Positions 25,316 to 50,315 of a stretch of 64,000 bases of DNA are shown one piece after another. The notes beneath the pieces are model-generated. The model saw only the letters and a list, made by a program, of their open reading frames with translations. It was not told the origin of the DNA and made no database searches. How positions within the stretch are numbered: position 1 is the first letter of the stretch; each line of letters begins with the position of its first letter. The stretch is from assembly GCA_016839515.1 (NCBI GenBank), contig JAEOUE010000127.1, positions 1 to 64,000 of the forward strand, read 5' to 3'. Made by a program: the position numbers and the translations under genes. The stretch comes from Candidatus Hodarchaeum mangrovi (GTDB lineage: Archaea > Asgardarchaeota > Heimdallarchaeia > Hodarchaeales > Hodarchaeaceae).

Positions 25316-25735
25316 GTGAAGACTATGTCATACTGGGTATATTTTCTTTTTGTCGGAGATTGGAAAAGTGGAAATAACCGAAAAATCTATATAGGTTATA
25401 CAAAGCATTTAATAGGTCGACTAAGCCAGCATATCGGACTGAGTTCCATCAAGGGAGCAAAATTCACAAGAAAACAACCAATTGAACTTGCTAGAGTCGA
25501 AATATATGATATACAGAAAGAAGCTTTACAAAGAGAATGGCAACTAAAGCATAAAAGTCCTATGAACCAAAAATTCAATAAATTAAGATTGATTAATAAA
25601 TTTAAAGAGAAGTACCCAAGTGAGCTGCTCAAAATTAACAATTATCTTAAAGATTATTATGAATACCTTAATCTGGTAAGCAGGAATTTGTTAAATGAAG
25701 AAGCAAACCTTTTAGCAACATTAAAAAGGAATTAA
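25316..25735 (+). CDS. GIY-YIG nuclease (YhbQ/Slx1-like)
   Basis: YWVY...IYIGYT..RLSQH...GAKFT...EALQREWQLK. Confidence 0.88.
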   Translation: MKTMSYWVYFLFVGDWKSGNNRKIYIGYTKHLIGRLSQHIGLSSIKGAKFTRKQPIELARVEIYDIQKEALQREWQLKHKSPMNQKFNKLRLINKFKEKYPSELLKINNYLKDYYEYLNLVSRNLLNEEANLLATLKRN

Positions 25736-25878
25736 CTTTGATTTTATCCTATCCCTATGATTATATTGCCTATTAAATCTAATCTCAAAGCTGATAAATA
25801 TTCAAATAAAATTGATCTATTATTTGCATATCAAATAATTAAATTAAAAGGGGTATAAATTGGATGTGAAACAATCTT

Positions 25879-27306
25879 TTGGTTAATATTAATATTATTC
25901 TTTTAATAATTACAATAATTTTTTTCCTTATCCTTATAACAAGATATTTTGAAATTATTCCTAGCCTTTTAACACAATTTATGATACGCAATCAAACTTT
26001 TGAAAATTTAACTCCCCAAGATCTAGGATTAAATGCAGTAAATGTTTCTATCCCATTATCAGAGGCAGAAACGCAAGGATGGTTTTTCCCAGGTCCTGAT
26101 GAACAGGATGCTGTTATTCTTATGGTTCCTAGCTGGATAGAGACAGATAACTTTTCCAAATATTTTAGAACTGCTAATTTACTCCAAAAAATCGGATTTA
26201 ATGTTCTTATACCTCTTTATTATAAAATGGATGCTAATAACACTCAATCTATCAAACTCAATACCTCCACCAAGTATTTAAATCATGTTATTGAAAAAAC
26301 ATATGAATTTCTTATAACTTATCCTGGAATTAATAGAAGAAAGATTGGAATATATACGAACTCGTTCGGAAGCACCTTTGCTTGTTCGCTTGTCTATGAT
26401 TATCCAATTAAATCCATAGTTATTGAAGATGGTCCTATATCCTTTAACGATATGTTTACGGTGAACGCTTTTGGAAAAAATAAGGCCTTATATTTTATAT
26501 TTCGTGTTTTTTTCGGATTTTTTACCTTTCCTTTCTTTTGGTTGACTAAATGGCAATCAAACCATTCTCTCCGAAAAATTCGAGCAACACCTTCATTCCT
26601 CATAGCAAGTCGAGAAAATCAATTACAACCCCATAAATCAGTTTGGAAGAGTTATCAACGTCTATATAAACCAAAACAATTTTGGTTTGAGCATAGTATC
26701 TTACCGAACACCATAAAAGATGTCTGGAAAGAAGAGTACCTCCAAAAAATCAAACATTTTTATGATCGAAATCTAGCTGGATTAATACAACCTGAATTTC
26801 ATTTTGATTTCGTTGGAGGAAGGAAAGATAAAGGAAAATATCCTAATGAGATCACAATCACAGTAATGCCACCTCAATTAGCTGAAATTCCGCTTCAAAT
26901 CTTACTAGCTGATAATTCCAATCTTGAAGAACTTCGTATATATTTTACAGGTGCATCGAAAACTATACCAATCTCTCTTGACTTTAAACCAAAATATATG
27001 ACATTACTCCCTTTTTATGCCGTGGATAAAACTGAGTTATCATCATTCAAACAGTGGAAAAAAAGAGGTTTAGAATTTGGCTTACTAGCAACAATTGATG
27101 AACTATTACGGCAGCCATTATCTCAATTAAATCCATTATTAAATCGTTATTACTATTTAAAGAGTATCTTATTATTTGAACAAGGAGAAAAGAATTTAGC
27201 TAAACAAATATTAATTACCAAGATAGATGATGATTACTGGAAACAAAAATGCTTGAACGATTCAGATAGTAGACAAATTCTTGACAAATCTAATACTCTT
27301 TTTTAA
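25879..27306 (+). CDS. Membrane-anchored alpha/beta hydrolase-fold protein with C-terminal extension
   Basis: N-terminal TM, QGWFFP, KIGFNVL, nucleophile elbow IGIYTNSFG. Confidence 0.6.
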   Translation: MVNINIILLIITIIFFLILITRYFEIIPSLLTQFMIRNQTFENLTPQDLGLNAVNVSIPLSEAETQGWFFPGPDEQDAVILMVPSWIETDNFSKYFRTANLLQKIGFNVLIPLYYKMDANNTQSIKLNTSTKYLNHVIEKTYEFLITYPGINRRKIGIYTNSFGSTFACSLVYDYPIKSIVIEDGPISFNDMFTVNAFGKNKALYFIFRVFFGFFTFPFFWLTKWQSNHSLRKIRATPSFLIASRENQLQPHKSVWKSYQRLYKPKQFWFEHSILPNTIKDVWKEEYLQKIKHFYDRNLAGLIQPEFHFDFVGGRKDKGKYPNEITITVMPPQLAEIPLQILLADNSNLEELRIYFTGASKTIPISLDFKPKYMTLLPFYAVDKTELSSFKQWKKRGLEFGLLATIDELLRQPLSQLNPLLNRYYYLKSILLFEQGEKNLAKQILITKIDDDYWKQKCLNDSDSRQILDKSNTLF

Positions 27307-27331: not shown

Positions 27332-27643
27332 TTAAAGTTTAGGAAGACCAGAATAGCAGGAAAACTGACAAAAATCACAATAAGGGGACTCTAACATCAT
27401 TAATTTACAAAAATAAATAGGAAATTTAGAATTTTTTTGATTGTTGCGATAAAAATACAAGCACTCAATATTGAAATTTCTTGCTACAGCCTCCTCAATC
27501 ACTCCATCCCCAAAATATTGATAATAAGGACAAGTATCTGGGCAATGTTCTATCCATGAATGGTATTCGAGACATAAAATCAGATTTTTCCTTTTTGAAA
27601 TAAGTCGTTTAAGACAAGATTTATTCATGAATAAATTCCTCAA
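27332..27643 (-). CDS. Small Cys-rich protein (two apparent 4-Cys units)
   Basis: C..C..CPDTCPYY followed by C..C..CDFCQF. Confidence 0.6.
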   Translation of the reverse strand: MRNLFMNKSCLKRLISKRKNLILCLEYHSWIEHCPDTCPYYQYFGDGVIEEAVARNFNIECLYFYRNNQKNSKFPIYFCKLMMLESPYCDFCQFSCYSGLPKL

Positions 27644-27702
27644 TGGATTCTATAAAGATATACAGAAGATCCCTTTAATACTCACAAAATTGCTTACCTA
27701 AA

Positions 27703-27719
27703 TTTCGAATATATAAACT
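27703..27719 (+). promoter_or_regulatory. TATA-containing 17-mer TTTCGAATATATAAACT, identical copy at 50413-50429
   Basis: Both copies are intergenic and ~50 nt upstream of a + strand ATG. Confidence 0.55.
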
Positions 27720-27770: not shown

Positions 27771-28214
27771 ATGCAGAATCTTATACAAAACCCACAGAAT
27801 CTTATCTTTGAAAATCTATTTTTTTTTCTATCTTTAGGTAAATTTGACACAATTCTTACAAAAGAATATCCAAACTATGTTTATGAAGAATTTTTAATTG
27901 TTTCAGAACCATGGAAAGATCATTTATCTTATTTTGAGGAAATTATCCCAATTTTATTGGATAAAGAGCAAGAAAAACCCTTGCAAAAAGTAGAACTCTT
28001 TACAGAAATCAATTTTGTTATATATACTTCCCCTATGACGGGTTATTTAATTGGTTTAGGAATTAGATTTTTTATGGTAATAAGTAATCCCTTCTCGCTT
28101 TTAAATTTGGACCAAGAGCACAGATTACAAAAAAAGATGTATCTTCTTTCCCGAGGTATATTGAATTCAAATTTTCATCAAATCTCACAACTTGAAATAC
28201 ATATTCCAGTGTGA
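27771..28214 (+). CDS. Hypothetical protein
   Basis: 147-aa ORF, first of a three-gene + strand operon. Confidence 0.6.
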   Translation: MQNLIQNPQNLIFENLFFFLSLGKFDTILTKEYPNYVYEEFLIVSEPWKDHLSYFEEIIPILLDKEQEKPLQKVELFTEINFVIYTSPMTGYLIGLGIRFFMVISNPFSLLNLDQEHRLQKKMYLLSRGILNSNFHQISQLEIHIPV

Positions 28215-28220: not shown

Positions 28221-29024
28221 GTGTTTTTCGTCACTCCTTCTTTTTTAAAAGAATTTAATAGATGTCCTCATGCTTTTTATTTACGAAGAATACAACACTT
28301 TGAATTAGGCTTCTCAAAGGAAGTTGAAATGGAAATAATAGCATATCGAAAGATAGAAGAATATACGAAAGCATTTTTCACCATCTTATTTAATCCACCT
28401 TTAAGTTACTCAGTTATCACTCATAGAGAAGAGATATCATATCTCTTAAAGGCAAGATTAACTTACAATTACTCATTAGAATCTTTGAACGAATTACTTG
28501 TTAGAAAATGTTTTAGCTTTCTCGGATGGTTAATACAAGAACTTTGGGTTATGTTACCAAAAAATAAAAGACACCAAAAATATATTCATCCAAATAAAAT
28601 TTATGAACTAATATTATCAGATCGATTGAAATTAAAAGGATGCCCTTCTCTAGTATTTTTACATCCAAATAATACTTATTTGCTTGTAATTCAATCTTTT
28701 AACTCGAATCCAATCTCAAATCGTCTTATAATTTCACAAGCTGCCATCTATTCCCAAATCTTATGGCAAAATGACAAAATAAAATCGAATGATTTTCTAT
28801 ATATCGATTATCAGAGCAATCTAATCATTTATAGGAAATTTGTGCAAAAAGACTATCAAATTCTTTCAGATTTCCTTCAAGAATTTCATGATACCATTGA
28901 AGATGAATTATTTGATTCTCCAAACACTAATAATTGTAAAACATGTGAATTCAGGCTAATATGTGAATTAACTGGTGATAAAAATCTCAACAATAATAGA
29001 CTTAATTTTAGAAGGTTTTCTTGA
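28221..29024 (+). CDS. Cas4/AddB-like PD-(D/E)XK-fold protein with Fe-S staple, catalytic residues degenerate
   Basis: NRCPHAFY, QAAIY and NCKTCEFRLIC retained; KGCPSLV and LVIQSF at the expected D and ExK positions. Confidence 0.7.
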   Translation: MFFVTPSFLKEFNRCPHAFYLRRIQHFELGFSKEVEMEIIAYRKIEEYTKAFFTILFNPPLSYSVITHREEISYLLKARLTYNYSLESLNELLVRKCFSFLGWLIQELWVMLPKNKRHQKYIHPNKIYELILSDRLKLKGCPSLVFLHPNNTYLLVIQSFNSNPISNRLIISQAAIYSQILWQNDKIKSNDFLYIDYQSNLIIYRKFVQKDYQILSDFLQEFHDTIEDELFDSPNTNNCKTCEFRLICELTGDKNLNNNRLNFRRFS

Positions 29025-29847
29025 TTTTCTTGTCTGGTACGCAGGAGAATTAAGTGGACCAGATATTATACTTATAGTATCTCATCAAGTATCTTACTAT
29101 ATAATTCTACAAATAAAATTAATCCTATTCCCTTTCATAAAACGACTATTAAATTATTTATTTTTTCCATTTAGATGGATTCATGTCTATTTCCATATAA
29201 CTGCTGCTAAAGAAATTTTAAATGAATTAGAGAAGAAAATAGAACAAGAAGATTTGGACCCGCTTCTTGATTCAGCCAATCTACGAGCTAGCTTAATTTC
29301 GGGATTAGATATTCCTGATGAGAACCCTGGATTGCTATTATCATTAAATAGATTGGAGCATGCAAAACGTGTAGTTTTTGCTCCTAGTCGCTTTGCATTA
29401 ATAGCTTTTATCGCATATCTCTTAGTTTCACCTATTCTATTATCTAACAAAATTGTTTCTACCCAGCTTGGGGCACTAATTCATTTATATTTTTTCATTG
29501 GAATTTTTAGCGTTTTGATGCCTTCTATTAATGATTATTACTTTCTCTTCCATACTCTTCTTTTAGAGATGAATATTCCTTCAAAATATTTTTATATGTC
29601 AATTATTGTCTATATAATAGTCATTTTCGATACAGTTTGGCGAACTACTGACTTTTTTCTCTCTGTTTTAATAGGAACTATCTTTTTTATTGCCTATTTA
29701 ATAGGATTATTTATAATAGGGTATTTGGGTCAAATCAGGAAAGGAAAGAATTCAGCTATCTATTGGCTTCCTCTAAAAAGCTTACGAGAACTTATCTCGA
29801 AAGAATCAGAAATAGATTTCCTTTCAATCGAAGATTTGGATCTATAA
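28975..29847 (+). CDS. Polytopic membrane protein resembling an M50/DUF3267-like metalloprotease lacking the catalytic Glu
   Basis: PFRWIHVYFH (HxxxH), FAP and MPSINDY motifs; several TM helices. Confidence 0.55.
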   Translation: MIKISTIIDLILEGFLDFLVWYAGELSGPDIILIVSHQVSYYIILQIKLILFPFIKRLLNYLFFPFRWIHVYFHITAAKEILNELEKKIEQEDLDPLLDSANLRASLISGLDIPDENPGLLLSLNRLEHAKRVVFAPSRFALIAFIAYLLVSPILLSNKIVSTQLGALIHLYFFIGIFSVLMPSINDYYFLFHTLLLEMNIPSKYFYMSIIVYIIVIFDTVWRTTDFFLSVLIGTIFFIAYLIGLFIIGYLGQIRKGKNSAIYWLPLKSLRELISKESEIDFLSIEDLDL

Positions 29848-29855: not shown

Positions 29856-30560
29856 TTATGGAAGCAGAGAGCTTTGAGATGATCCTATCGATATGTTAAA
29901 CAATTTTAATGTAACTCTAAAGGTGGTATTTACTTTTTCAATAAAAAAATGAATAGGTGAGAAATCATGCAATAAGGTTCCATAAATATTCGAATTTTCG
30001 GATTTATTTTCAATATCTGTTTTGTAGACAGTTGTTAAGATTGGTACTTTAGAATTTTCAGCAAGATATTTGAGATCAAGAAGATGTTCGAATATTCTTC
30101 TACTCCAGAATATTTTTTCTTTGTGAAAATACTTTAGAAAATTAAGTGGAGATCCAAATAACGTATCAATAATGATCAAATTAAACAAACAATTTGATTC
30201 TGTGAGTTCACGAAAATAAATTAGCTGTTCTAAAAGTGTTTCAGGACTGATAAAGGTTATGCTTTCTAACTTATCAGATGATAAGAATCTGGAAAAAATA
30301 GAGTAGCGAAGATTCCCAGAATGATCACAATAAAGAATTTTGATTTTTCTATCTTTTTTAAATGCCTGTAAAATACCTTGAAGACAAAAGCGCGACTTTC
30401 CACCCCCTGTATCTCCCCAAATAGTATGAATAAATCCAGGAATTAAACCTCCAATCTTCATATCAATAATATCAATCTCGAGAGGTATCGCATTTGTAGG
30501 ATTCCAAAGTGATATTAGATTGTCAAATGACTGTAAATGTAAAGTGACCAGCTCATTCAC
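29856..30560 (-). CDS. RadB/Rad51-paralogue-like RecA-fold ATPase
   Basis: GGLIPGFIHTIWGDTGGGKS (Walker A), ILYCD, LIIIDT (Walker B), LAENSKVPILTT; no N-terminal HhH domain. Confidence 0.78.
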   Translation of the reverse strand: MNELVTLHLQSFDNLISLWNPTNAIPLEIDIIDMKIGGLIPGFIHTIWGDTGGGKSRFCLQGILQAFKKDRKIKILYCDHSGNLRYSIFSRFLSSDKLESITFISPETLLEQLIYFRELTESNCLFNLIIIDTLFGSPLNFLKYFHKEKIFWSRRIFEHLLDLKYLAENSKVPILTTVYKTDIENKSENSNIYGTLLHDFSPIHFFIEKVNTTFRVTLKLFNISIGSSQSSLLP

Positions 30561-30984
30561 CTATTAAATCAATAGTTGTTGAATTAAGAATTTGAATTGA
30601 CTTATTTCGGGTCAATAACAGAATATTAAAAGTTTCGGATAATTTTGAAAGATAAAATTCAATTTCAGGAAGAATATGATAGTAATGGAACATATTAATA
30701 CAAATCGTAAAAAAATTATACTTTTTAGAACTTTGTAAATTTCCAGATTTAATTATTTCATTCAATAATTCTTCTGAATGTACATTGAGAAAGAAAAAAT
30801 GAGAGGGACTAAAATCTTGCGTTTCAAAGAGTGTATAAAATTCAGGAAGTTGAATGATTTGATAATCTATCCACAAGATTTTAGGAATTAGTAAATTTGA
30901 CAGTTTAGTAAATAAATGTTTAAGAGAATCCTTATATTCTCCAATCAGTAAATAAATATGTTTTTGGGGTAATGCTTCATCCAT
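30553..30984 (-). CDS. Minimal degenerate RecA-fold-like protein
   Basis: IYLLIGEYKDSL / KILWID / TICIN / LSETFNILLLT follow the RadA core strand order; no Walker A Lys; overlaps the downstream paralogue by 8 nt. Confidence 0.55.
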   Translation of the reverse strand: MDEALPQKHIYLLIGEYKDSLKHLFTKLSNLLIPKILWIDYQIIQLPEFYTLFETQDFSPSHFFFLNVHSEELLNEIIKSGNLQSSKKYNFFTICINMFHYYHILPEIEFYLSKLSETFNILLLTRNKSIQILNSTTIDLIGE

Positions 30985-30994: not shown

Positions 30995-32035
30995 TCAATA
31001 ATTATTATCTTGATTTACTGGATTTAGAATTTCCTTTTCCTGTTGAACCACCATTTCTTGGTAAGCATAATAATAAGGAAATACAAACAAAATAAAAATT
31101 AAAACGGGCAACATGATCCATCCTGGGATTGGGTGGTTAATAGGAAGAAAATTAGAGTGAGAATCTTTCTGAAATACTCCAGATAGTTTTAATTCTATCC
31201 TAACTGCTTTGGCACTATCAAATCCATTATAATCTGGCTTAATTAAAATAAGAACTTCATTTATTGGATTAATTTCGGAACTAGATAAGGAATAATTGAT
31301 AATAAGGGTATGGTCACCGATTCCATAATACCTTTGCTGATTAACTGTCACTGAATCAATTTCCAATTGGGTAAGTGTGATACGTAATGTACATAGCAAT
31401 GAAAAATCAGTGGGAGGAGGTACTACAAATAAATATGAATGAATCGCTAGACTTTTCTCAAGAAATGTATATTTTTCTGGTTCAACAATAAAATATTGAC
31501 TTGCTGGAAATATATCCAGAGAACTTAATTCCAACGGATTATAATAATCCATAGTAATAAGCTCAGCATTTATAATTTGAAAATTAATATTGGAAGTTCT
31601 CCAATTTATAGTAGGGTCTAATATTAAAGTTATAGAAAGCTTTAAGGAGTTTTCTGTTACACTCCCGAGAGGAAGATACAGTTGTTGAGCTAAAGAAAAT
31701 TGATAGGATTCACTTTCAGATAGAGAGATTTTCTCCATCAAATAAAATGTTCTTGTTTTGAATTGACCATTAATCTTTGCTTGAAGGGTTACACTACTTA
31801 TAGGTTCACCATGGTTCTGAACAGTAAAATTTAATAAAACTATTTCTCTAGATCTAGTTAAAAGTACACTACGAATATATTCTTGATCCACTGTCGAAAT
31901 TTGTTCATTAATATAAAGATTATATCGATCTATTACATTCAGATTAGTTTGTTCATTCCCTAGAACAACTTGGATACCAGAACTTACTAAAAAACTAATA
32001 ACAAGAAAAAAAGTAAAAATTTCGATTCTTTTCAT
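30995..32035 (-). CDS. Secreted beta-rich protein with C-terminal membrane anchor
   Basis: Signal peptide, beta-strand-rich body, C-terminal TM IPGWIMLPVLIFILFVFPYYY. Confidence 0.75.
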   Translation of the reverse strand: MKRIEIFTFFLVISFLVSSGIQVVLGNEQTNLNVIDRYNLYINEQISTVDQEYIRSVLLTRSREIVLLNFTVQNHGEPISSVTLQAKINGQFKTRTFYLMEKISLSESESYQFSLAQQLYLPLGSVTENSLKLSITLILDPTINWRTSNINFQIINAELITMDYYNPLELSSLDIFPASQYFIVEPEKYTFLEKSLAIHSYLFVVPPPTDFSLLCTLRITLTQLEIDSVTVNQQRYYGIGDHTLIINYSLSSSEINPINEVLILIKPDYNGFDSAKAVRIELKLSGVFQKDSHSNFLPINHPIPGWIMLPVLIFILFVFPYYYAYQEMVVQQEKEILNPVNQDNNY

Positions 32036-43077: not shown

Positions 43078-44922
43078 TTAATGTTTTAATAATATCTTAA
43101 GAACTGGAAGAATTTCATCTATTGTCATGATAGGAATACTGCAAAGATTGAATTTCCCAATAAGATTAAATAGAGTATATCGGACATCTAAACTATAATC
43201 TTTTAATACGCTTGGAATATATAAGACCTTAATCTCTTTATATTTTTCTTTTAAATCATTAAGAATATTAGAGGCTTCAGGTAATATTGAACTGATTGTT
43301 TCGGAGGTCAGAATAAGAATAAAATCTTTTTTTTTGGTAATCAATCCTGGATACTTAGTCTTGTCTGATTTTACAATATTATAATTTTCTGAAAGGATAT
43401 AGGGAATTTTTGATTCATATAAAATTGGTGATAATCTTAATTCTATTTGATCGGATTTTTGTTCTTTTCCCATGATTTGAGACTTTAGTCTTTTATTCAA
43501 GATTTCAGGGTCAAAATTAGATTTATTCTTATTTTGAATAGAAAAAAACCGCTTTTGTTCATTTGTTCCTTTTCCAATTAAGAAAAATCGTGGAATCTCA
43601 ACATTTAATGTATTTAATGTTTCTATTGTGTTAGTTGCGACATCAAAGGCAATAATAATAAGGGAATGTGATGCTAAATAGTTATTAGCAGTATTTGCTA
43701 TACATATAGTTACTTTTCTTTCTGTAAAGGGTAATAAGTACCGTTTCAAATCTATTTCATTAAACGAGCTTATTGGATGTTCAACATATAGAACTCGTAA
43801 TCCGATTTCTTGAAAAGTCTTCTGAAGAAATCTTGCATTGTAATAATTATGTGTTAAAACTAAAATACCCTCAGAATATTGGGAAATTAGTTTAAATAAC
43901 ACTTGGATCTTAGGATGGGGAATCTCCCTGTTTAAATGGATATATTCTCTCAATTTTTGAATTTTTAGATCATTTAAAAACACTGAAATCGCTTTTTGAC
44001 CTAATTGATCATCTATTTGCTTTGACTTCAAACGAGATTCTAAATTATCAAAATAGTCTATAACACCTTTAAAACCCTGAGAGATTACCAAGTGTAGTAA
44101 TGAATAGATTCGATAGAGATTTCCTGTTTGAATCATTATTTTTGTATTTCCTTCCCTCTTTAAACTTTCATGAATAGCTTTAACTTGTCTAATAGGGGCT
44201 TTTAAAGTAAGATTAATCCCACTATACTTAAGATGGTCTATCTCGAATTCCCTGAGCTGATTAAGCAGATCTAATATGAAAAAATACTCTTTCGGATAAG
44301 GAATGTAATAGGGGTGAATATTTACCTTTGATTCTCCAGTTTCATTCTGAAGTCTTTTTACTTCTTGTAACCCCAAAGCATTACACACTTGGAAAAGTCG
44401 CTCATAATTGTTAATTCGGGTACACCCAATAAGTCGAGATTTTGATAATTTTTTAGTTATATAACGTATAGAACTTGAACCAACACATCTTTCTGCAGAC
44501 AAAATAAAGATAAGGGTAAATTTATCACAATTTTCTAGATTTTTTTCTTTTAAATCATTTTTCAATGTTTTAGGAGTTGTTAATATTATCGAATAATTTT
44601 GATAATCTTTTTTACGAGCATTTGGTAAAATTGATCCGTTCACTGCTGTAATACGATGGTCAATTAAGCCAGAAGTTTTCAATCCATTTAGGATATAATT
44701 CTGAAAATTAGGTTTTAGGATAACTAATATCTTTTGATTTTGCTTGTTTTTCTGTTTTAACATAAAAAGAGATACTAAGCTCATCATTCGTAACAAATTA
44801 GAATTTTCGCGATAAATAACTAATATATTATGGTCAAGAAGACTTGGTAAGAGTAATTGCTCTTCAAGTGAAGGAATAAATCCTAGATTATTTATCAAAT
44901 TCACGCTTTCATCCATACTCAT
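43078..44922 (-). CDS. Hef/FANCM/XPF-like protein with inactivated helicase motifs and eroded C-terminal nuclease-like domain
   Basis: NILVI, NGSILPNARK, TTPKTLKNDL, SQG and HPKI match Hef landmarks; GKT and DEAH are absent (YRENSNL, ILSAERC). Confidence 0.68.
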   Translation of the reverse strand: MSMDESVNLINNLGFIPSLEEQLLLPSLLDHNILVIYRENSNLLRMMSLVSLFMLKQKNKQNQKILVILKPNFQNYILNGLKTSGLIDHRITAVNGSILPNARKKDYQNYSIILTTPKTLKNDLKEKNLENCDKFTLIFILSAERCVGSSSIRYITKKLSKSRLIGCTRINNYERLFQVCNALGLQEVKRLQNETGESKVNIHPYYIPYPKEYFFILDLLNQLREFEIDHLKYSGINLTLKAPIRQVKAIHESLKREGNTKIMIQTGNLYRIYSLLHLVISQGFKGVIDYFDNLESRLKSKQIDDQLGQKAISVFLNDLKIQKLREYIHLNREIPHPKIQVLFKLISQYSEGILVLTHNYYNARFLQKTFQEIGLRVLYVEHPISSFNEIDLKRYLLPFTERKVTICIANTANNYLASHSLIIIAFDVATNTIETLNTLNVEIPRFFLIGKGTNEQKRFFSIQNKNKSNFDPEILNKRLKSQIMGKEQKSDQIELRLSPILYESKIPYILSENYNIVKSDKTKYPGLITKKKDFILILTSETISSILPEASNILNDLKEKYKEIKVLYIPSVLKDYSLDVRYTLFNLIGKFNLCSIPIMTIDEILPVLKILLKH

Positions 44923-45205
44923 GCTTTGACTCTTCCCTGGTTTTTAACCTGTTATCAATTGGTCTATTAAGAAACTGGTGAAAGTCTTCTATTTCAGATG
45001 ACTGGTCTAGATTTTTAATACAGCTTTTATGTGCACTACAGGTGATTACTTTAGCATTTCTGATGACTAAATCGGGAACCCGACGATTTAACAGAAAATA
45101 ACATACGCCCCCTACTCCATAATTACCAAACTCACAAATTAAACACAATGGTGAATTAAGAAAGATTTCATCAATATATGGTTGAAGATGTAATTGATAG
45201 GTCAT
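44909..45205 (-). CDS. Small Cys-rich metal-binding protein
   Basis: CLICEF...CYF...CSAH; GGTGA RBS; overlaps the Hef-like start. Confidence 0.65.
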   Translation of the reverse strand: MTYQLHLQPYIDEIFLNSPLCLICEFGNYGVGGVCYFLLNRRVPDLVIRNAKVITCSAHKSCIKNLDQSSEIEDFHQFLNRPIDNRLKTREESKHEYG

Positions 45206-45213
45206 GAACTCTC

Positions 45214-45861: not shown

Positions 45862-46332
45862 ATGTCGGTTGGAAACACAACTGATAGAAAAAAAGCAGAT
45901 TTATTCAATTCTATTGAAGATTTAATTAAAAAAGGGTATATCCAAGATGCTATCGACCATCTCGAATATCTTTATCGAACAACACCATCTATCAAACAAA
46001 CTATCCTTCTGAAATTCGCAAAGCTTTATACTCAAATCGCACAACCTGAAAAAGCACTTCTATATCTTCAGAAAATAATTCCCACTTCTGATTTACAGAC
46101 AAATGAATTAATATTTGAAAATTTAATCAAACTCGACAAGGAACGTCAAGCAATAATGTTTATCGCACGATCAGACCTTTCTATAAACCAAAAAACCATT
46201 CTCCTTAAAAATAATGGTCTTTTAAAAGAGCCTTCAGTCTTAATACAACCCGTAATCCTTCAATGTTTGAAATGTAATTCCTTCCTGTTCTTCTTGAACA
46301 ATAAATTAACCTGTCTAACCTGTAGATGCTAG
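45862..46332 (+). CDS. TPR-like protein with C-terminal Zn ribbon
   Basis: FAKLYTQIAQPEKALLYL; CLKC...CLTC. Confidence 0.7.
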   Translation: MSVGNTTDRKKADLFNSIEDLIKKGYIQDAIDHLEYLYRTTPSIKQTILLKFAKLYTQIAQPEKALLYLQKIIPTSDLQTNELIFENLIKLDKERQAIMFIARSDLSINQKTILLKNNGLLKEPSVLIQPVILQCLKCNSFLFFLNNKLTCLTCRC

Positions 46333-46350: not shown

Positions 46351-47526
46351 TTAATAGTTCTCATTAATTATTGATTTTTCTTTTTGGATCATTTCACAGA
46401 GGTTTTCATCTTTTTTTTTGCTAATCTCTTCTATTAACCTATTAATAAAACTTTCATCAAATTTCTCATCTTTTTCATCCGATGATTTTAAATACTGAAC
46501 TTTAGAAAAATCAATTACAACATTCGGTTCAGACGCAGTAGATGATTCACCTGATAGGTTAGAGGGAGCCTGTTTGGCAATAAGATCTTCAGAAAGAATT
46601 GAGGTTGTTAGAGGCAGGGGTAGGTTCCCCTCTTTCTCTAAATAAGTATTAAAATATGTATTATTATGATTTTTAATATTTTGTACTTCTTCAATTGGGA
46701 TGTTTACCTCTGGATCAATCAATCCAGAATTAGCTTTCTCATTAGATTGATTTAGATCTTCTAATATGAATTCTTCCTCTGAATCAGGAAAAAGGTCAAA
46801 ATTTTTTTCAATTTCAGATTTATTATCTTTAGTGTTAAAATTATCAGTTTCAGAGTCTAAAATTTTATTATTTGTGATATTGGGCTCATTTGGAATTATA
46901 ATTTCATGAGGGGATTTTGGGGGAGAAGGTGGATCCTGATTATCAATTGCTAAAATACGTGAATTAAATTTGAATTCTGATAATCCTGATTTAGATACGG
47001 CTGAAATCACTAATCCAGGGATAACTTTTAGTAGAGTTGTCTTAAAATCTTCAAGACGTTCTTTTAGGGATAGATGAAATTCACCTAATTGTCTAGGATT
47101 TTTTATTAATTGCAGATAATTCAGATTAGGAAAATCAAGTGTCAGGTTAAAAATTGTTTTAAACGCGTCCTCTGAAACTCGGAATTCAAAGTTCGTAAGA
47201 TTTTTTACTACAGATAGTCGAAAATTCTGCGGTTTTGCATCTACTTGAAAATCTATTATTACTGTTGTTCGGTTCTCTTTAAAAGAATAGATTATCATAG
47301 CTCCTGGAATTTCTTCAGGATAGAAAATTTTTTCACTCATTTCAAGATTAGAAAAAGAAAAAAACTGATGTTGCTGTTTTAACTCAATTTCCTCTAATAT
47401 AAGCCCTATAAAGTACGCTACACCTCCTGTTAAAAAGACAATTATAATTCCAGTTTCACTAGATAAATAAATGACTACTCCGAAGAGAAATCCAATTATT
47501 GTAGTTAATGTACTTCGACAGATCAT
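46351..47526 (-). CDS. Membrane protein: two N-terminal TMs, globular domain, acidic disordered tail
   Basis: Hydrophobic residues 7-44; Pro/Asp/Glu-rich C-terminal half. Confidence 0.7.
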   Translation of the reverse strand: MICRSTLTTIIGFLFGVVIYLSSETGIIIVFLTGGVAYFIGLILEEIELKQQHQFFSFSNLEMSEKIFYPEEIPGAMIIYSFKENRTTVIIDFQVDAKPQNFRLSVVKNLTNFEFRVSEDAFKTIFNLTLDFPNLNYLQLIKNPRQLGEFHLSLKERLEDFKTTLLKVIPGLVISAVSKSGLSEFKFNSRILAIDNQDPPSPPKSPHEIIIPNEPNITNNKILDSETDNFNTKDNKSEIEKNFDLFPDSEEEFILEDLNQSNEKANSGLIDPEVNIPIEEVQNIKNHNNTYFNTYLEKEGNLPLPLTTSILSEDLIAKQAPSNLSGESSTASEPNVVIDFSKVQYLKSSDEKDEKFDESFINRLIEEISKKKDENLCEMIQKEKSIINENY

Positions 47527-47567
47527 CTCAAATAATATTGATCTTTTTCCTTATATATTCAGAAAAA

Positions 47568-50315
47568 TCAATGTAAAGCCTGTAAAATATCATTATAATC
47601 ATCCCCAATACTTGAAACACCACCTGAAACGATCTCATCTGCCAAGAGTTTTGCGCTCTGTTTATCTAATTGTGAATTATTATTACTACACCGTGGTAAG
47701 AAAACACATCGGGGACAACCTTCTTTACAAGAACAATCAAGGATAGAAATAATTCGATTAAACAATTCTTCTAAGTGTTGAAGTAGCATTGCACACACCC
47801 CTGATCCAGATCCTTGATCAAAAAGTAAAATATAACCAGAAGGTAACAATGTTAAACCTCCAATCTCTGTTAATTGTCCCCCAATAAAAGGAAGACTAGC
47901 ATGAAGAAGAACATGAACCAATGTGTGCAAACCGGAAGCTAAACTGGATTGATCTTGGATATGGAGCTGTGGTACTTTAAATAATATTCCTTTAGATCGT
48001 GATGAATAAAAAAGGGGATCCTGTAGCTTTTGGACACTGGTACCAGAGGGAATTTCCAAGGTATAACCATAAACAGTCCATAATATTTTGACTTCAACAT
48101 AACCAGCTTCGATTCCTAAAACGACCTGTTTCTTCAAAATAGAGAGGATCTCTGGTTTCATAGAAGAGAGGGGAAAAGTGGATCCCCAAACATTTTTTGG
48201 TTTAATTAATTCAGCACTTCCTCTTAAACCACTAAAATAAAAACTAGAAACTTTATAGCGGATTCCTCCTGCGTAATAGAATGCTCCAGGGTGTAGTTCA
48301 AACATCGCAAGTGGCATGGCTCTTCGACCAATAGTTTTTCCTCCCTTCAATCGGATAAAAACTTCATGATTTTTTCCACGAATTGAATATCTCTGAGCTT
48401 TTTCTCTACCAGCTTCTGTTGGAGTGAGCCATATCTCATCTTTCACCATTAAGTAGTTCTCTTTGACCAATCTATTCAATACAGTATAAAAAGGAGGAAA
48501 TTCTAAGGGACTAATTGATATATCGCGATCTAACGCCGTACAAAGGAGCTGATGTTCTGCAACAAATGGATTTGAAGGATCGAAGTACACATCCTCAACA
48601 TCAGTATAATATGTTGCTGGGTTTTCCAGATAAAATTGACTTATTGGATCATCAGCATTCAGGAGAATAATAGCAATAGCTTCTTGACCTGATCGTCCAG
48701 CACGACCAATTCGCTGCATAGCACGATTAACAGCAATTGGAGGAGTTATTACAACATTGATATCTCCAATATCTATCCCTAATTCAAGGGTTGGTGTTGC
48801 TAAAAGTACATTCAATAACCCTTCACGAAAATTATGTTCGACCTCCTCTCTCATGCTTTTTGATAATCCTGCACGGTGTATAGCAACCTTTCGATCTTTT
48901 CCTCCAAGTTTTTGATAAAGGAATTCAACCTTACGATGGCTATCTTGAAAGATTAACATCTTACCATAAGATTTGATACTATTAACTAAAGACACTAAGC
49001 TATCGGTTGTAGATATAGATGGGTAAGGAGAAAGTATCAAAAAATGCAATTTACCTCTTTTTCCATTTTCGCATTCTATTACCTTAATTGGTCTCTCAAG
49101 CAACATTGATACGAAGTTTGATGCATTTGCTACAGTAGCTGAGGAACCAATGAATTGAATTTTGGTTTGAATGACTCTTTCTAACCTTTTCAAGATAAAA
49201 TACATATTGCTTCCTAAAGTTCCCGAGTAAGAATGTATTTCGTCTAGTATGACTAGTTTCACTGATGCTAATAGTTCTTGAAATCTTAAAGCGTTTTTTC
49301 CTATTCCTAAATGATAATTTAATATATCTGGGTTCGTGATCAGAATTTCAGGAGGATTAACATAAATTTTTTTTCTTTGATAATGACTAGTATCACCATC
49401 AAATACACTAACTGTTAATCCAACCTTTTCTGCGAGATCCACAATCTTTCGATGTTGATCCTTTGCAAGTGCTTTCATTGGATAGATAAGTAGCAACTGA
49501 ACTCCATAACCTTTGAATCTTTTCACTTTCTCTAAAGCTGGAAGGAGAAATGCTTCTGTTTTTCCATTTCCTGTTGGTGCTACAATACAAACATCTTCAC
49601 CTCGAATAATAATTTCAAATGCTTCTTTTTGAAACTTAAATAAGTGAGATATACCTTTTTCAATAAAAAATCGTTTTATCTCTGGATCTAGATCTGCCTT
49701 ATCAATTGAAATCCCATTTTCTCCTGACTGTTCTGGGAAAAGACGGTAATCGACAATTTGATGTTGATTATGATTTATAATTTTTCTAATTGGGAATGGA
49801 ATCTGTTCCATAGGAATATTATAGATAACAGCAAATGAATTTAAATTTAAAACTGTGGAAGGTGCAGTCTTTTTCAGTTGTAATCCATCTTGAAGTCCCA
49901 ATTCTTGAACTTGTGGAATAGGCTTCAATTTTCCTGAACTTTTCAAACGTAGTTTTGTTGCTTTTTGTAATTGTGGACTTCCTCCTCCGAAAGAATAGTA
50001 TTTTCTAAGACAAATTTCACCTTTCTGTATATCTTTTAACTTGAAATACAATTTACTTAATTCTTTCCAAGTTTGGCTATGAGTTCTATCAATTTCTAGA
50101 ATGCGTGCATAAAATTTCTTAGCTAATCCAACCTGTTTTAATTTAATTAATAATTGAGCGCATTCACTTAGAAGATCAAGAGGTATGCTATCTACTTTGA
50201 GAAATCGTTGAACTCGTTCTAAAAAATCTCTAACATTCTTTGTTTCTTGATATTCGGTATACCATTCGTAATATTGGGTCCAATAAGGGTGCTCCTTTAC
50301 TTTTAGTGTTGACAT
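47568..50315 (-). CDS. DUF1998 DEAH helicase (Hrq1/SftH/MrfA family) with N-terminal TPR
   Basis: APTGNGKT, YPMKALAKDQ, DGDT, DEIH, SSAT, TLELGIDIG, QRIGRAGR, ELHPGA, CSCKEGCPRC; TPR AKKFYARILEID...WKELSKLY. Confidence 0.92.
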   Translation of the reverse strand: MSTLKVKEHPYWTQYYEWYTEYQETKNVRDFLERVQRFLKVDSIPLDLLSECAQLLIKLKQVGLAKKFYARILEIDRTHSQTWKELSKLYFKLKDIQKGEICLRKYYSFGGGSPQLQKATKLRLKSSGKLKPIPQVQELGLQDGLQLKKTAPSTVLNLNSFAVIYNIPMEQIPFPIRKIINHNQHQIVDYRLFPEQSGENGISIDKADLDPEIKRFFIEKGISHLFKFQKEAFEIIIRGEDVCIVAPTGNGKTEAFLLPALEKVKRFKGYGVQLLLIYPMKALAKDQHRKIVDLAEKVGLTVSVFDGDTSHYQRKKIYVNPPEILITNPDILNYHLGIGKNALRFQELLASVKLVILDEIHSYSGTLGSNMYFILKRLERVIQTKIQFIGSSATVANASNFVSMLLERPIKVIECENGKRGKLHFLILSPYPSISTTDSLVSLVNSIKSYGKMLIFQDSHRKVEFLYQKLGGKDRKVAIHRAGLSKSMREEVEHNFREGLLNVLLATPTLELGIDIGDINVVITPPIAVNRAMQRIGRAGRSGQEAIAIILLNADDPISQFYLENPATYYTDVEDVYFDPSNPFVAEHQLLCTALDRDISISPLEFPPFYTVLNRLVKENYLMVKDEIWLTPTEAGREKAQRYSIRGKNHEVFIRLKGGKTIGRRAMPLAMFELHPGAFYYAGGIRYKVSSFYFSGLRGSAELIKPKNVWGSTFPLSSMKPEILSILKKQVVLGIEAGYVEVKILWTVYGYTLEIPSGTSVQKLQDPLFYSSRSKGILFKVPQLHIQDQSSLASGLHTLVHVLLHASLPFIGGQLTEIGGLTLLPSGYILLFDQGSGSGVCAMLLQHLEELFNRIISILDCSCKEGCPRCVFLPRCSNNNSQLDKQSAKLLADEIVSGGVSSIGDDYNDILQALH

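What the first reader, a model, noticed from the sequence alone, without database searches (positions are those of the whole stretch)
25316..50315. Candidate undescribed system: ~25-kb recombination/repair locus physically coupled to cell-surface and membrane genes
Seen: RadA, two further RecA-fold genes, a HerA/VirB4-fold gene, XPD, Hef-like and DUF1998 helicases, and GIY-YIG, Cas4-like and MmcB-like nuclease folds. These are interleaved with a giant surface protein, several membrane proteins and small Cys-rich proteins, with no integrase or ordinary metabolic genes in between. Known: archaeal repair genes are usually scattered, and the crenarchaeal Ups/Ced systems couple cell contact and a HerA/VirB4 ATPase (CedB) to recombinational repair. 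Inference: a lineage-specific DNA uptake/exchange-and-recombination module. Its parts list also parallels eukaryotic HR and crosslink repair (Rad51 and paralogues, FANCM/XPF, FANCJ/RTEL, Hrq1, Slx1), which would matter if the host is Asgard.
Basis: partly seen in the sequence, partly recalled or inferred. Interest (0 to 1): 0.88.

Follow-up and report, generated by a model that had tools for sequence, protein, structure and literature searches.

The report
Asgard repair-gene cluster with dead enzymes
One group of Asgard archaea (Hodarchaeales) keeps an extra RadA recombinase, an XPD helicase, two catalytically dead ATPase/helicase look-alikes, nuclease-like genes and a MrfA-type helicase in one chromosomal block beside a giant surface-protein operon; it reads as a lineage-specific DNA-repair cluster, not as a shown DNA-uptake machine.

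Summary
Confirmed: RadA, XPD, a DUF1998/MZB helicase and GIY-YIG (Pfam). Also confirmed: a Hef-like gene, a HerA/VirB4 fold, an MmcB-like PD-(D/E)XK fold, a Cas4-like gene and one RadB-like gene. A RecA fold for the 143-aa gene is not supported.

The host is a Hodarchaeales (Asgard) MAG. Independent metagenome contigs cover the stretch.

New points:
- The HerA-like protein lacks Walker A and B residues in all 11 orthologues.
- The Hef-like protein lacks helicase motifs I and II in all 10 orthologues.
- Standard RadA copies, Hef and HerA-family genes lie elsewhere in the genome, so these are extra paralogues. The XPD is the only compact XPD-type gene.

The ~22.7-kb block (27.7-50.3 kb) is collinear across the genus, but so are its housekeeping flanks. 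It stays together in two genomes where it has moved, and is dispersed in one.

Beyond the genus, only XPD with the HerA-like gene (order) and XPD with the MmcB-like gene (class) stay linked. Surface genes do not.

Verdict: a lineage-specific repair and recombination gene cluster with pseudo-enzyme partners. A Ced-like DNA-uptake role is unsupported. Co-expression could not be tested.

The parts
25316..25735 (+). GIY-YIG nuclease-domain protein (139 aa). It belongs to the left flank rather than to the cohesive block.
   Evidence: Pfam GIY-YIG E 6e-12. It stays with the glycosyltransferase flank in G007:C28 and G001:C29 while the block lies on another contig.
25879..27306 (+). 475-aa protein with an N-terminal hydrophobic segment. 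There is an alpha/beta-hydrolase lead only. Flank-associated.
   Evidence: No Pfam or NCBIfam hit. Atlas feature hits at 0.83 to alpha/beta hydrolase clusters, which is a lead only. Hydrophobic segment at residues 2-20. Travels with the flank.
27332..27643 (-). 103-aa protein with 9 Cys, function unknown.
   Evidence: Orthologues are present in the genus.
27771..28214 (+). 147-aa protein of unknown function, first gene of a + strand unit with the Cas4-like and 290-aa genes.
   Evidence: No family hit. Seven orthologue references. Lies 6 nt before the next gene.
28221..29024 (+). Cas4-like PD-(D/E)XK protein with four conserved Cys. No D/ExK catalytic motif is evident (my reading).
   Evidence: PDDEXK_1 E 1.6e-4. 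TIGR00372 cas4 E 1.4e-8, 34.7 bits against a cut-off of 65. PADLOC Cas4 E 4e-9. C15, C239, C242 and C248 invariant in 5 sequences. Only the N- and C-terminal Cys motifs align to Cas4 4r5q.
28975..29847 (+). 290-aa polytopic membrane protein. It sits just upstream of the HerA-like gene in 3 genomes.
   Evidence: 4-5 hydrophobic segments. Lies 0.1-1.3 kb from the HerA-like gene, on the same strand, in G006, G007 and G009.
29856..30560 (-). RadB/RecA-like P-loop ATPase (234 aa), last gene of the surface-protein operon.
   Evidence: TIGR02237 RadB E 5.6e-8, far below its cut-off. RecA chains match in PDB. Walker A G49/G52/G54/K55 and D132 invariant in 7 sequences. Overlaps the 143-aa gene by 8 nt.
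30553..30984 (-). 143-aa protein, unknown.
   Evidence: hhalign against the 234-aa family gives probability 1.6%. No Walker A in 6 sequences.
30995..32035 (-). 346-aa protein with N- and C-terminal hydrophobic segments (probably extracellular and membrane-anchored).
   Evidence: No Pfam hit. Follows the YdjM-like gene in every genus locus that has the giant gene.
32035..32607 (-). YdjM-like membrane protein (190 aa).
   Evidence: Pfam YdjM E 1.1e-6, 28.7 bits against a cut-off of 29.
32612..37405 (-). Giant 1597-aa surface-type protein, first gene of the - strand operon. It is divergent from RadA across 290 bp.
   Evidence: Big_13 E 5e-7 and DUF4625. Hydrophobic segments at 13-31 and 1570-1588. 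Adjacent to the RadA paralogue in 11 of 12 genus loci examined.
37696..38727 (+). RadA paralogue (343 aa) with intact Walker A/B and an HhH N-terminal domain. Its clade is confined to the order.
   Evidence: Pfam Rad51 245 bits. Only 42-45% identical to the three canonical-like copies of the same genome. Forms a clade of genus plus order-level sequences, support 97/99. 69-75% identity within the genus and 54-55% within the order.
38672..41317 (+). HerA/VirB4-fold protein (881 aa; the likely start is Met24 at 38741) without ATPase motifs. It has a C-terminal helical/winged-helix-like extension.
   Evidence: Foldseek HerA E 8e-11, plus VirB4/TrwK and DndH-C. No Pfam hit. The Walker A position reads G-S-x-N-x-E and the Walker B position reads THAxE in 11 of 11 orthologues. 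All 55 database relatives are unnamed and carry no Pfam domain, and every organism name a source gives is Hodarchaeales, Heimdallarchaeota or Promethearchaeota.
41317..43071 (+). XPD-type Fe-S 5'-3' helicase (584 aa), predicted active.
   Evidence: The only other DEAD_2 protein in the genome is a DinG-like 803-aa protein on C234.
43078..44922 (-). Hef paralogue (614 aa) lacking helicase motifs I, II and VI and lacking a recognisable ERCC4 domain.
   Evidence: The canonical Hef of the same genome reads PTGLGKT and DEAH where this protein reads YRENSNL and LSAER. The motifs are absent in 10 of 10 orthologues, and the C-terminal ~130 aa are missing in 3 of them. ERCC4 hits occur only on C209 and C179.
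44909..45205 (-). 98-aa Cys-containing protein, upstream of and overlapping the Hef paralogue.
   Evidence: 14-nt overlap. Lies next to the Hef paralogue in every genus locus examined where the contig allows.
45317..45838 (+). MmcB-like PD-(D/E)XK-fold protein (173 aa).
   Evidence: AF2 pLDDT 87.2. Foldseek top hit 3dnx E 5.4e-6. E26, D48, E63 and E65 invariant in 12 sequences. Found in 21 of 121 Asgard genomes. Lies 35 nt from XPD in G122.
45862..46332 (+). 156-aa protein with weak TPR-like hits and a C-terminal CxxC...CxxCxC motif.
   Evidence: TPR hits at E 0.01-0.1 only. Follows the MmcB-like gene in 6 genus loci.
46351..47526 (-). 391-aa protein with an N-terminal hydrophobic anchor and a long acidic, low-complexity tail. 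It lies downstream of the DUF1998 helicase.
   Evidence: No family hit. Adjacent to the helicase in G001, G002, G004, G006, G007, G009, G010, G011, G013 and G015.
47568..50315 (-). MrfA/YprA-family helicase (915 aa: DEAD + Helicase_C + MZB/DUF1998) with a ~200-aa N-terminal extension that has a weak TPR hit.
   Evidence: Pfam. TIGR03817 E 8e-83, below its cut-off. Present in 15 of 15 genus genomes; 35-40% identical in families f3 and f5.

Best explanation
The block at about 27.7-50.3 kb is a chromosomal cluster of DNA-repair and recombination genes specific to Hodarchaeales. It is built from several small operons.

Shown:
- RadA paralogue -> HerA-like protein -> XPD is one co-directional, near-contiguous unit.
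- It converges on a second unit, 98-aa protein -> Hef paralogue.
- A divergent unit encodes an MmcB-like PD-(D/E)XK protein and a Zn-ribbon protein.
- A further unit encodes a MrfA/YprA-type helicase and a membrane-anchored acidic protein.
- XPD, the RadA paralogue, the MrfA-like helicase and the RadB-like ATPase keep their catalytic motifs.
- The HerA-like and Hef-like proteins have lost theirs in every orthologue.

Inferred:
- The set deals with replication-blocking lesions (bulky adducts or crosslinks).
- XPD and the MrfA-like helicase open DNA. The MmcB-like protein, if active, cuts it. The dedicated RadA paralogue handles the single-stranded DNA.
- The dead HerA-like and Hef-like proteins act as DNA-binding or scaffold partners, much as the dead helicase domain does in eukaryotic XPF.
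- The giant-protein operon is a long-standing neighbour that shares a divergent promoter region with RadA. Nothing shows that it takes part.
For: Family and fold assignments.

Motif states.

Operon-like spacing (overlaps or gaps of 14 nt or less inside units).

Linkage within the genus:
- RadA paralogue next to XPD, with or without the HerA-like gene between them, in 12 of 12 genomes where both were found.
- XPD within 7 kb of the Hef paralogue in 12 of 14 genomes.
- MrfA-like helicase within 10 kb of the Hef paralogue in 10 of 15 genomes; 4 of the other 5 have them on different contigs.
- The block stays together when relocated in G007 and G001.

Linkage beyond the genus:
- HerA-like gene next to XPD in 2 of 2 order-level genomes.
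- MmcB-like gene 35 nt from XPD in G122, 1.5 kb in G023, and 11-19 kb in G024, G025, G028 and G038.

Core-genome behaviour in the genus: HerA-like 20 of 21 genomes, Hef paralogue 14 of 15, helicase 15 of 15.

Literature:
- MrfA is a mitomycin-C repair helicase. MmcB is a nuclease-like protein that protects Caulobacter from mitomycin C (passages of PMC13705206; abstract of PMC7797055).
- The YprA family has a repair branch and a defence branch (passages of 10.1101/2025.09.15.676423).

Independent metagenome contigs bridge giant-RadA, RadA-HerA-like, XPD-Hef-like and the helicase end.
Against: - No experiment and no expression data. Function rests on homology and neighbourhood only.
- The housekeeping flanks (tmk, PPIase, glycosyltransferase, LuxE/LuxC-like, HEAT, AsnC) are equally collinear in G003, G004, G009, G010, G011 and G013. 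Genus-level synteny alone therefore does not prove a functional unit.
- G015 has the set in four separate places.
- The HerA-like gene sits away from RadA-XPD in at least 7 genus genomes.
- The MmcB-like assignment is by fold only. No Pfam family was hit by any of 12 members at E <= 1, and there was no sequence hit to solved structures. The conserved motif is E-x-E, not E-x-K, so nuclease activity is uncertain.
- The MrfA-like helicase has no MrfB-type exonuclease partner next to it.
- The tight operon joining the RadB-like ATPase to the surface genes (7 of 10 loci) is not explained by a pure repair reading.
Confidence: 0.5

Rival explanations
1. Inherited neighbourhood without joint function. 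The units are independent genes (an XPD operon, a Hef paralogue, a helicase, a surface operon) that lie together only because this part of the chromosome has been little rearranged in one genus.
For: - The flanking housekeeping genes are collinear over the same span in 6 genus genomes.
- The set is dispersed in G015.
- The HerA-like gene moves freely.
- The 143/234-aa pair was not found in 3 of 10 loci.
- All wider linkage is pairwise (XPD with HerA-like; XPD with MmcB-like).
Against: - The block stays intact in G007 and G001 although it is separated from both flanks there.
- One copy each of three rare families (6, 2 and 2 loci in 4.0 Mb) lie within 8 kb.
- Amino-acid identity of 40-70% shows a deep genus in which order could have decayed.
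- The XPD-MmcB-like and XPD-HerA-like links recur in other families.
Confidence: 0.25
2. One reading: a cell-contact-coupled DNA uptake/exchange and recombination module. The giant adhesin-like protein and the membrane proteins bring in DNA, a HerA/VirB4-like protein handles it, and the RadA paralogue recombines it.
For: - HerA/VirB4 fold.
- The HerA-like gene lies just downstream of the 290-aa polytopic membrane gene in G006, G007 and G009.
- The giant gene and RadA are divergent neighbours in 11 of 12 loci, including both relocated blocks.
- A RecA-like ATPase is the last gene of the surface operon in 7 of 10 loci.
Against: - The HerA-like protein has no Walker A lysine and no Walker B acidic pair in 11 of 11 orthologues, and no membrane segment. 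It cannot be the motor.
- No pilin, PilB/T2SSE or other secretion ATPase family was hit in the 20 ORFs.
- No surface or membrane gene lies near XPD, RadA-like or MmcB-like genes in 6 class-level loci.
- G015 lacks the giant gene beside RadA.
- The linkage is confined to one genus-level clade.
Confidence: 0.1
3. An anti-virus or anti-plasmid defence island. Relatives of HerA-like, DinG/XPD-like, YprA-like, Cas4-like and GIY-YIG proteins all occur in defence systems.
For: - PADLOC hits to type IV DinG (E 7.5e-53), to BrxH, DrmA and Dpd helicases, and to Cas4.
- Many of the HerA Foldseek hits are from Sir2-HerA and DUF4297-HerA defence complexes.
- The YprA family has a large defence branch.
- An AAA_15/AAA_21 ATPase lies next to the relocated block in G007.
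Against: - The PADLOC hits are generic helicase or nuclease homology. No partner genes of any named system were found.
- The genes are near-universal in the genus, not patchy.
- No integrase or transposase among the 20 ORFs, nor among the 10 of 15 flanking ORFs scanned in G007.
- No relative of the HerA-like protein in viral contigs.
- No sharp GC break.
Confidence: 0.1

Closest known systems
Ced DNA-import system with Ups pili of Sulfolobales
   Same: A HerA/VirB4-fold protein encoded near membrane proteins and recombination genes. The idea is that cell contact is coupled to recombinational repair.
   Different: Here the HerA-like protein lacks the ATPase motifs and any membrane segment. No pilus genes were found in the region. 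No homology to CedA or CedB was tested, because no model of them is in the libraries used.
Archaeal herA-mre11-rad50-nurA end-resection operon
   Same: An operon-level grouping of a HerA-fold protein with other repair enzymes. The HerA fold was matched directly to HerA and HerA-NurA structures. The conserved four-gene cluster is described in PMC13748450 (passages).
   Different: No NurA, Mre11 or Rad50 in the block. The HerA-like protein is not detected by Pfam DUF87, which finds 5 other loci in this genome. It is predicted inactive, and its partners are a RadA paralogue and XPD.
Hef, and its eukaryotic relatives XPF and FANCM
   Same: The helicase-domain homology is to Pyrococcus Hef. Loss of helicase motifs parallels the dead helicase-like domain of XPF (recalled). 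There is a weak XPF match at E 0.12.
   Different: The profile hits only archaeal Hef. There is no ERCC4 domain, and the C-terminal domain is absent in 3 of 10 orthologues. It is a genus-level paralogue: orthologue-level hits occur in the genus only. It is not an orthologue of XPF or FANCM.
MrfAB mitomycin-C repair pair of Bacillus subtilis (YprA family)
   Same: The domain set is DEAD + Helicase_C + MZB/DUF1998. The family is implicated in adduct repair.
   Different: There is no MrfB-type DEDDh exonuclease next to it. The neighbour is a 391-aa membrane-anchored acidic protein with no family hit. The helicase also has an extra ~200-aa N-terminal extension.
MmcB of Caulobacter crescentus (InterPro IPR009394, named in PMC13705206)
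   Same: The best structural match is 3dnx, an alphaproteobacterial protein that I recall as the structure of this family. It has a PD-(D/E)XK-type core with conserved acidic residues.
   Different: There is no sequence-level hit to any Pfam family or solved structure. The review says the family is almost confined to Alphaproteobacteria, whereas this family is found in 21 of 121 Asgard genomes. The motif is E-x-E.
Second RadA clade of some Asgard archaea (Matsuo et al. 2025, PMC12722695, passages read)
   Same: There are several RadA paralogues per genome in Heimdallarchaeia, and none groups with Rad51 or DMC1 specifically.
   Different: This genus has five RadA-type groups plus a RadB-like gene. 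The window copy forms a clade seen only in the genus and order, and it is encoded in an operon with XPD. The passages I saw do not mention that linkage. I could not map this clade onto the paper's clades.

Membership tests
Ced-type DNA import system | An active VirB4/HerA-type ATPase (Walker A GK[ST], Walker B acidic residues) | tested here: not met
   In 11 of 11 orthologues the Walker A position reads G-S-x-N-x-E and the Walker B position reads THAxE.
Ced-type DNA import system | A CedA-type polytopic membrane partner and type IV (Ups) pili | tested here: inconclusive
   A 290-aa protein with 4-5 hydrophobic segments neighbours the HerA-like gene in 3 genomes, but homology to CedA could not be tested. 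No T2SSE or pilin family was hit in the 20 ORFs.
Ced-type DNA import system | Induction by UV or DNA damage | not testable with these tools
   No RNA run holding this DNA was listed.
HerA/FtsK-type ATPases | HerA fold (barrel plus RecA-like core) | tested here: met
   Foldseek HerA 8yhx E 8e-11, 4d2i E 1.8e-9, probability 1.00; TM to target 0.35-0.44. The model is of moderate quality, pLDDT 70.7.
HerA/FtsK-type ATPases | Sequence membership (Pfam DUF87) | tested here: not met
   No Pfam hit at E <= 0.01. The genome-wide DUF87 search finds 5 other loci but not this gene.
Hef (helicase-nuclease) | SF2 helicase domains homologous to Hef | tested here: met
   1wp9 at E 1.5e-15 with the family profile. 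NCBIfam PRK13766 at E 1.9e-20, 72.6 bits against a cut-off of 610.
Hef (helicase-nuclease) | Motifs I (GxGKT) and II (DExH) | tested here: not met
   Absent in 10 of 10 orthologues. A direct alignment to the genome's own Hef shows the replacements.
Hef (helicase-nuclease) | C-terminal ERCC4 nuclease domain | tested here: not met
   No ERCC4 hit in the protein. The genome search finds ERCC4 only on C209 and C179.
XPD/Rad3 helicases | DEAD_2 + Helicase_C_2, four-Cys Fe-S domain, Walker A, DExH, motif VI | tested here: met
   Pfam. Best solved matches are archaeal XPD. G44/G46/K47/T48, C108/C122/C127/C172, D220/E221/H223 and Q524/G527/R528/R531 are invariant in 15 sequences.
RadA/Rad51 recombinases | Rad51 core with Walker A/B plus an N-terminal HhH domain | tested here: met
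   Rad51 245 bits and HHH_5 E 1.4e-12. Archaeal RadA 267-271 bits against RAD51 214 and DMC1 205. The sequence shows GENGCGKT and LVIVDS. It lacks the QLP...GG segment present in the three canonical-like copies (my reading).
MrfA/YprA helicases | DEAD + Helicase_C + MZB (DUF1998) Zn-binding domain | tested here: met
   Pfam E 1.2e-35, 1.2e-17 and 5.5e-8.
MrfAB pair | An adjacent MrfB-type DEDDh exonuclease | tested here: not met
   The neighbouring 391-aa and 156-aa ORFs have no exonuclease or other family hit.
MmcB-like (PD-(D/E)XK) | Fold match to the family's structure | tested here: met
   3dnx at E 5.4e-6, probability 1.00, TM 0.51/0.59. That 3dnx represents the MmcB family is recalled, not tested.
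MmcB-like (PD-(D/E)XK) | Sequence membership in the Pfam/InterPro family | tested here: not met
   0 of 12 family members hit an MmcB model at E <= 1.
Cas4 | One N-terminal Cys plus a C-terminal CxxC..C cluster | tested here: met
   C15, C239, C242 and C248 invariant in 5 sequences. Both motifs align to Cas4 4r5q.
Cas4 | Family score and catalytic D...ExK core | tested here: inconclusive
   TIGR00372 scores 34.7 bits against a cut-off of 65. The core does not align to solved Cas4. I see GxPS and IQT/IHT where D and ExK are expected (my reading). There is no CRISPR array or other cas gene in the region.
Known anti-phage defence systems (PADLOC) | A full set of a system's signature genes and a patchy distribution | tested here: not met
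   Only generic helicase or nuclease hits. The genes are present in 14-20 of 15-21 genus genomes.

The most novel reading that the evidence does not exclude
The 22.7-kb block is one functional apparatus of the archaea closest to eukaryotes. It would comprise three parts:
- A surface and membrane assembly: giant adhesin-like protein, YdjM-like protein, 346-aa protein, 143-aa protein and RecA-like ATPase, plus the 290-aa membrane protein with the HerA-like scaffold.
- A dedicated recombinase, helicase and nuclease set: RadA paralogue, XPD, dead Hef paralogue, MmcB-like protein and MrfA-like helicase.
- A physical or regulatory tie between the two.

It would thus be a cell-contact-linked DNA exchange and repair machine, rich in pseudo-enzymes in the way eukaryotic recombination and crosslink-repair complexes are.
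Probability: 0.08. Interest if true: 0.9.

Novelty: new variant of a known kind. Interest (0 to 1): 0.5.

Why it matters
Hodarchaeales are the archaea placed nearest to eukaryotes (abstract of PMC10307638 and its correction, seen in the listing).

This work shows three things about them:
- They have multiplied RadA to five groups.
- They keep one dedicated copy in an operon with XPD.
- They surround that operon with catalytically dead HerA-like and Hef-like paralogues, which are unnamed protein families with no Pfam model.

This gives concrete candidates for how repair machines acquire non-catalytic partner subunits, a hallmark of eukaryotic recombination and crosslink repair. It also gives a testable XPD-nuclease-like pairing across Heimdallarchaeia.

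It does not support a new DNA-uptake system. The eukaryote parallel is analogy, not orthology.

Tried and rejected
- Complex prediction of XPD with the MmcB-like protein: no verdict, score 0.00. This is not evidence either way.
- Expression: no RNA holder was listed for window 37401-47400 (one search failed on length).
- Shared regulatory motif across the units: only generic BRE/TATA-like promoters were found. One exact 17-nt repeat is listed under things noticed.
- Sequence search of the HerA-like protein against solved structures: nothing. NCBIfam and PADLOC: nothing meaningful.
- Viral contigs with the HerA-like profile: 0 relatives.
- Earlier findings of this scan, by sequence: none.
- MmcB-like family against Pfam (0 of 12 members hit a relevant family), against solved-structure sequences and against the Atlas (unnamed clusters only).
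- Cas4-like profile against solved structures: only the terminal Cys motifs align.
- 143-aa family against the RecA-like 234-aa family: probability 1.6%.
- 475-aa protein against solved structures: nothing.
- tRNA scan and Rfam scan of the window: none.
- Integrase or transposase next to the relocated block in G007: none in 10 of 15 flanking ORFs scanned.
- Considered and rejected: assembly chimera. Contigs of runs from two other studies cover 30 of 30 bins and bridge the unit borders.
- Considered and rejected: contamination as the source of the extra RadA copies. The single-contig genome G009 has orthologues of all five.
- Supplementary files of the papers cited could not be seen. Table S1 of the YprA preprint may classify this helicase clade.

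Full report
**What is encoded.** Window 25.3-50.3 kb holds 20 ORFs of 98-1597 aa.

Pfam names six of them:
- GIY-YIG (25316-25735)
- a weak PD-(D/E)XK hit (28221-29024)
- a YdjM-like membrane protein (32035-32607)
- a 1597-aa protein with Ig-like Big_13 hits (32612-37405)
- RadA (37696-38727; Rad51 245 bits plus HhH) and XPD (41317-43071; DEAD_2 plus Helicase_C_2)
- a DEAD/Helicase_C/MZB (DUF1998) helicase (47568-50315)

The rest needed other tools:
- The 614-aa ORF (43078-44922) matches the Hef helicase domain. PDB 1wp9 scores E 2.3e-7 with the single sequence and 1.5e-15 with the family profile. NCBIfam Hef scores E 1.9e-20.
- The 881-aa ORF (38672-41317) has no sequence match. Its AlphaFold model (pLDDT 70.7) matches HerA at E 8e-11, VirB4/TrwK and DndH-C.
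- The 173-aa ORF (45317-45838; model pLDDT 87) matches 3dnx at E 5.4e-6, followed by NucS, Cas4, SfsA and Card1. This is a PD-(D/E)XK fold. I recall 3dnx as the MmcB-family structure.
- The 267-aa ORF is Cas4-like below cut-off, with four invariant Cys.
- The 234-aa ORF is RadB/RecA-like with an invariant Walker A and B.
- The 143-aa ORF shows no relation to it (hhalign probability 1.6%). Only one of the 'two further RecA-fold genes' is therefore supported.

Hydrophobic-segment counts fit a surface-anchored giant protein and four membrane proteins. No tRNA or Rfam family lies in the window.

**Organism and assembly.** The window is contig C41 of a 4.0-Mb MAG (348 contigs, 91% complete, 6% contaminated). 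Relatives carrying the 881-aa gene are titled Candidatus Hodarchaeota, Heimdallarchaeota or Promethearchaeota MAGs. Contigs of runs from two other studies cover 30 of 30 bins of window 30401-50400 at 95% or higher likeness. They bridge giant-RadA, RadA-HerA-like, XPD-Hef-like and the helicase end. The arrangement is therefore not an assembly artefact.

**Active and dead enzymes.**
- XPD keeps Walker A, DExH, motif VI and the four Fe-S cysteines in 15 of 15 sequences.
- The RadA paralogue reads GENGCGKT and LVIVDS.
- The HerA-like protein has G-S-x-N-x-E at the P-loop position and THAxE at the Walker B position in 11 of 11 orthologues.
- The Hef-like protein has YRENSNL and LSAER where the genome's own Hef has PTGLGKT and DEAH. 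The motifs are missing in 10 of 10 orthologues, and 3 of those also lack the C-terminal ~130 aa. No ERCC4 domain is detected.

Both dead proteins are kept as long open frames at 36-49% identity across the genus. They are maintained genes, not decaying ones.

**Standard copies elsewhere.**
- RadA: the genome has six Rad51-family loci. Three canonical-like copies are 60-66% identical to each other. The window copy is 42-45% identical to those. There is also a fifth type on C153 and a RadB-like gene on C47.
- A 28-row tree puts the window copy in a clade of genus plus order-level sequences only (support 97/99). The three canonical-like copies form a genus-level triplication (97/95). The C153 type is shared with another family (100/100). 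Relations among these clades are unresolved.
- The single-contig relative G009 has all five types, so contamination does not explain the extra copies.
- Hef: a canonical 761-aa Hef with ERCC4 lies on C209, and a short ERCC4 protein on C179.
- HerA: five DUF87 loci lie elsewhere.
- XPD: the only other DEAD_2 protein is an 803-aa DinG-like helicase (9kqh, 306 bits). The window XPD is thus the only compact XPD-type gene.

**Gene order in the genus.** I mapped all window ORFs by tblastn onto fetched stretches of 13 genus genomes and checked positions genome-wide.
- RadA paralogue next to XPD: 12 of 12 genomes with both genes.
- XPD within 7 kb of the Hef paralogue: 12 of 14.
- DUF1998 helicase within 10 kb of the Hef paralogue: 10 of 15. 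Four of the other five have them on different contigs.
- Giant gene divergent from RadA: 11 of 12.
- RecA-like 234-aa gene at the end of the surface operon: 7 of 10.
- The HerA-like gene lies between RadA and XPD only in G000, G001, G004 and G013, and before XPD at a contig start in G005. It lies beside the helicase in G006 and G007, and elsewhere in G003, G009, G010, G011, G014 and G015.
- In G006, G007 and G009 the HerA-like gene lies just downstream of the 290-aa membrane gene.

Against a special status for the locus:
- In G003, G004, G009, G010, G011 and G013 the housekeeping flanks are collinear too. These are tmk, a 155-aa gene, PPIase, a PMT_2 glycosyltransferase, a LuxE/LuxC-like pair, a HEAT protein and AsnC.
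- G015 has RadA-XPD, the 156/173/98/Hef-like group, helicase-391 and the HerA-like gene in four separate places, with no giant gene within 18 kb upstream of RadA.

For cohesion:
- In G007 the block lies on contig C27 in a different context. The gene order is helicase-391, HerA-like, 290, 173, 98-Hef-like, XPD, RadA, giant-YdjM-346. The two flanks lie together on C28 with GIY-YIG, the 475-aa gene and the 103-aa gene.
- In G001 the block is on C7, internally rearranged, and the glycosyltransferase-GIY-475 flank is joined to AsnC on C29.
- No integrase or transposase was found among 10 of 15 ORFs flanking the G007 block.

**Beyond the genus.**
- The HerA-like family was found in 20 of 21 genus genomes and 2 of 2 order-level genomes. 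It was not found in 17 class-level genomes.
- All 55 database relatives are unnamed, and every organism name a source gives is Hodarchaeales, Heimdallarchaeota or Promethearchaeota.
- In both order-level genomes the HerA-like gene is next to XPD. G022 also has a DUF1998 helicase on the same 12.8-kb contig.
- Orthologue-level hits of the Hef paralogue are confined to the genus.
- The MmcB-like family occurs in 21 of 121 Asgard genomes, mostly Heimdallarchaeia.
- Its distance from XPD is 35 nt in G122, 1.5 kb in G023, and 11-19 kb in G024, G025, G028 and G038. It is on other contigs in G116 and G127.
- Caution: some of these loci were chosen because RadA and XPD shared a contig.
- In the six class-level loci (15-55 kb each), none of the giant, YdjM-like, 346-, 290- or 391-aa genes was found at E <= 1e-3.

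**Reading.** The DNA-side genes form a lineage-specific repair and recombination cluster of small operons.
- The family names point to lesions that block replication. MrfA is a mitomycin-C repair helicase. MmcB protects Caulobacter from mitomycin C. Hef and XPD act on forks and bulky lesions (established knowledge).
- I infer that the dead HerA-like and Hef-like proteins are non-catalytic partners. This is inference only.
- The one complex prediction I could run, XPD with the MmcB-like protein, gave no verdict.
- The surface operon is a stable neighbour in this genus, and the RecA-like ATPase inside it is unexplained.
- The DNA-uptake idea lacks a motor and a pilus, and finds no support outside the genus. 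I put it at about 0.1.
- A defence-island reading is also about 0.1. The PADLOC hits are generic, and the genes are near-universal in the genus.
- The reading that the units are only inherited neighbours remains at about 0.25.

**Literature.**
- Several RadA paralogues in Heimdallarchaeia, none grouping with Rad51 or DMC1, are in print (PMC12722695, passages).
- Searches for Asgard with RadA/Rad51/paralog and for Asgard with XPD/Hef/HerA/Heimdallarchae found no paper describing this cluster. Neither did passages of the NurA review.
- That is two full-text searches of an open-access library, not proof of absence.
- Supplementary tables could not be read.

Noticed in passing
window 27702-27718 and 50412-50428: An exact 17-nt direct repeat, TTTCGAATATATAAACT. 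Its 15-nt core occurs only at these two places (allowing up to 1 mismatch) in the whole 4.0-Mb genome. Both copies lie 50-65 nt upstream of a + strand start codon (the 147-aa gene and the LuxE-like gene) and look like BRE/TATA promoters. Together they bracket the 22.7-kb block that is relocated as a unit in G007 and G001. Looser versions lie upstream of LuxE, RadA or the giant gene in relatives. Whether this is a promoter consensus or a relic of rearrangement is not resolved.
   Followed up: partly
G000 contigs C125:3274-4221, C138:65446-66456, C289:14594-15538: There are three canonical-like RadA genes, 60-66% identical to each other, each with its own orthologue in the single-contig relative G009. 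This is a genus-level triplication of the main recombinase, on top of two more divergent RadA types and a RadB-like gene.
   Followed up: partly
G000:C234 (locus L085:1957-4368): A second XPD-family helicase of 803 aa. Its best solved match is the bacterial Finegoldia DinG with an N-terminal extra domain (9kqh, 306 bits over the full length). It lies next to a ThiF-family gene.
   Followed up: partly
window 50478-53416: A LuxE-like acyl-protein synthetase (weak hit, E 1e-4) and a LuxC-type acyl-CoA reductase (E 3e-52) form a pair that borders the block in most genus genomes. G007 carries two copies of the LuxC-like gene.
   Followed up: no
window 8291-20254: A beta-oxidation-type set: enoyl-CoA hydratase, thiolase, 3-hydroxyacyl-CoA dehydrogenase, an AMP-binding ligase and acyl-CoA dehydrogenase. 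It lies upstream of the region.
   Followed up: no
window 59615-62488 and 62585-63832: A 957-aa ORF with no Pfam hit lies beside an FtsX/ABC pair. Next to it is a 415-aa ORF with only a weak RtcB hit, E 4.5e-4.
   Followed up: no
L007:15775-17484 (G007:C27): An AAA_15/AAA_21 (OLD/AbiEii-like) ATPase with a DUF3696 tail lies a few kb from the relocated block in G007.
   Followed up: no
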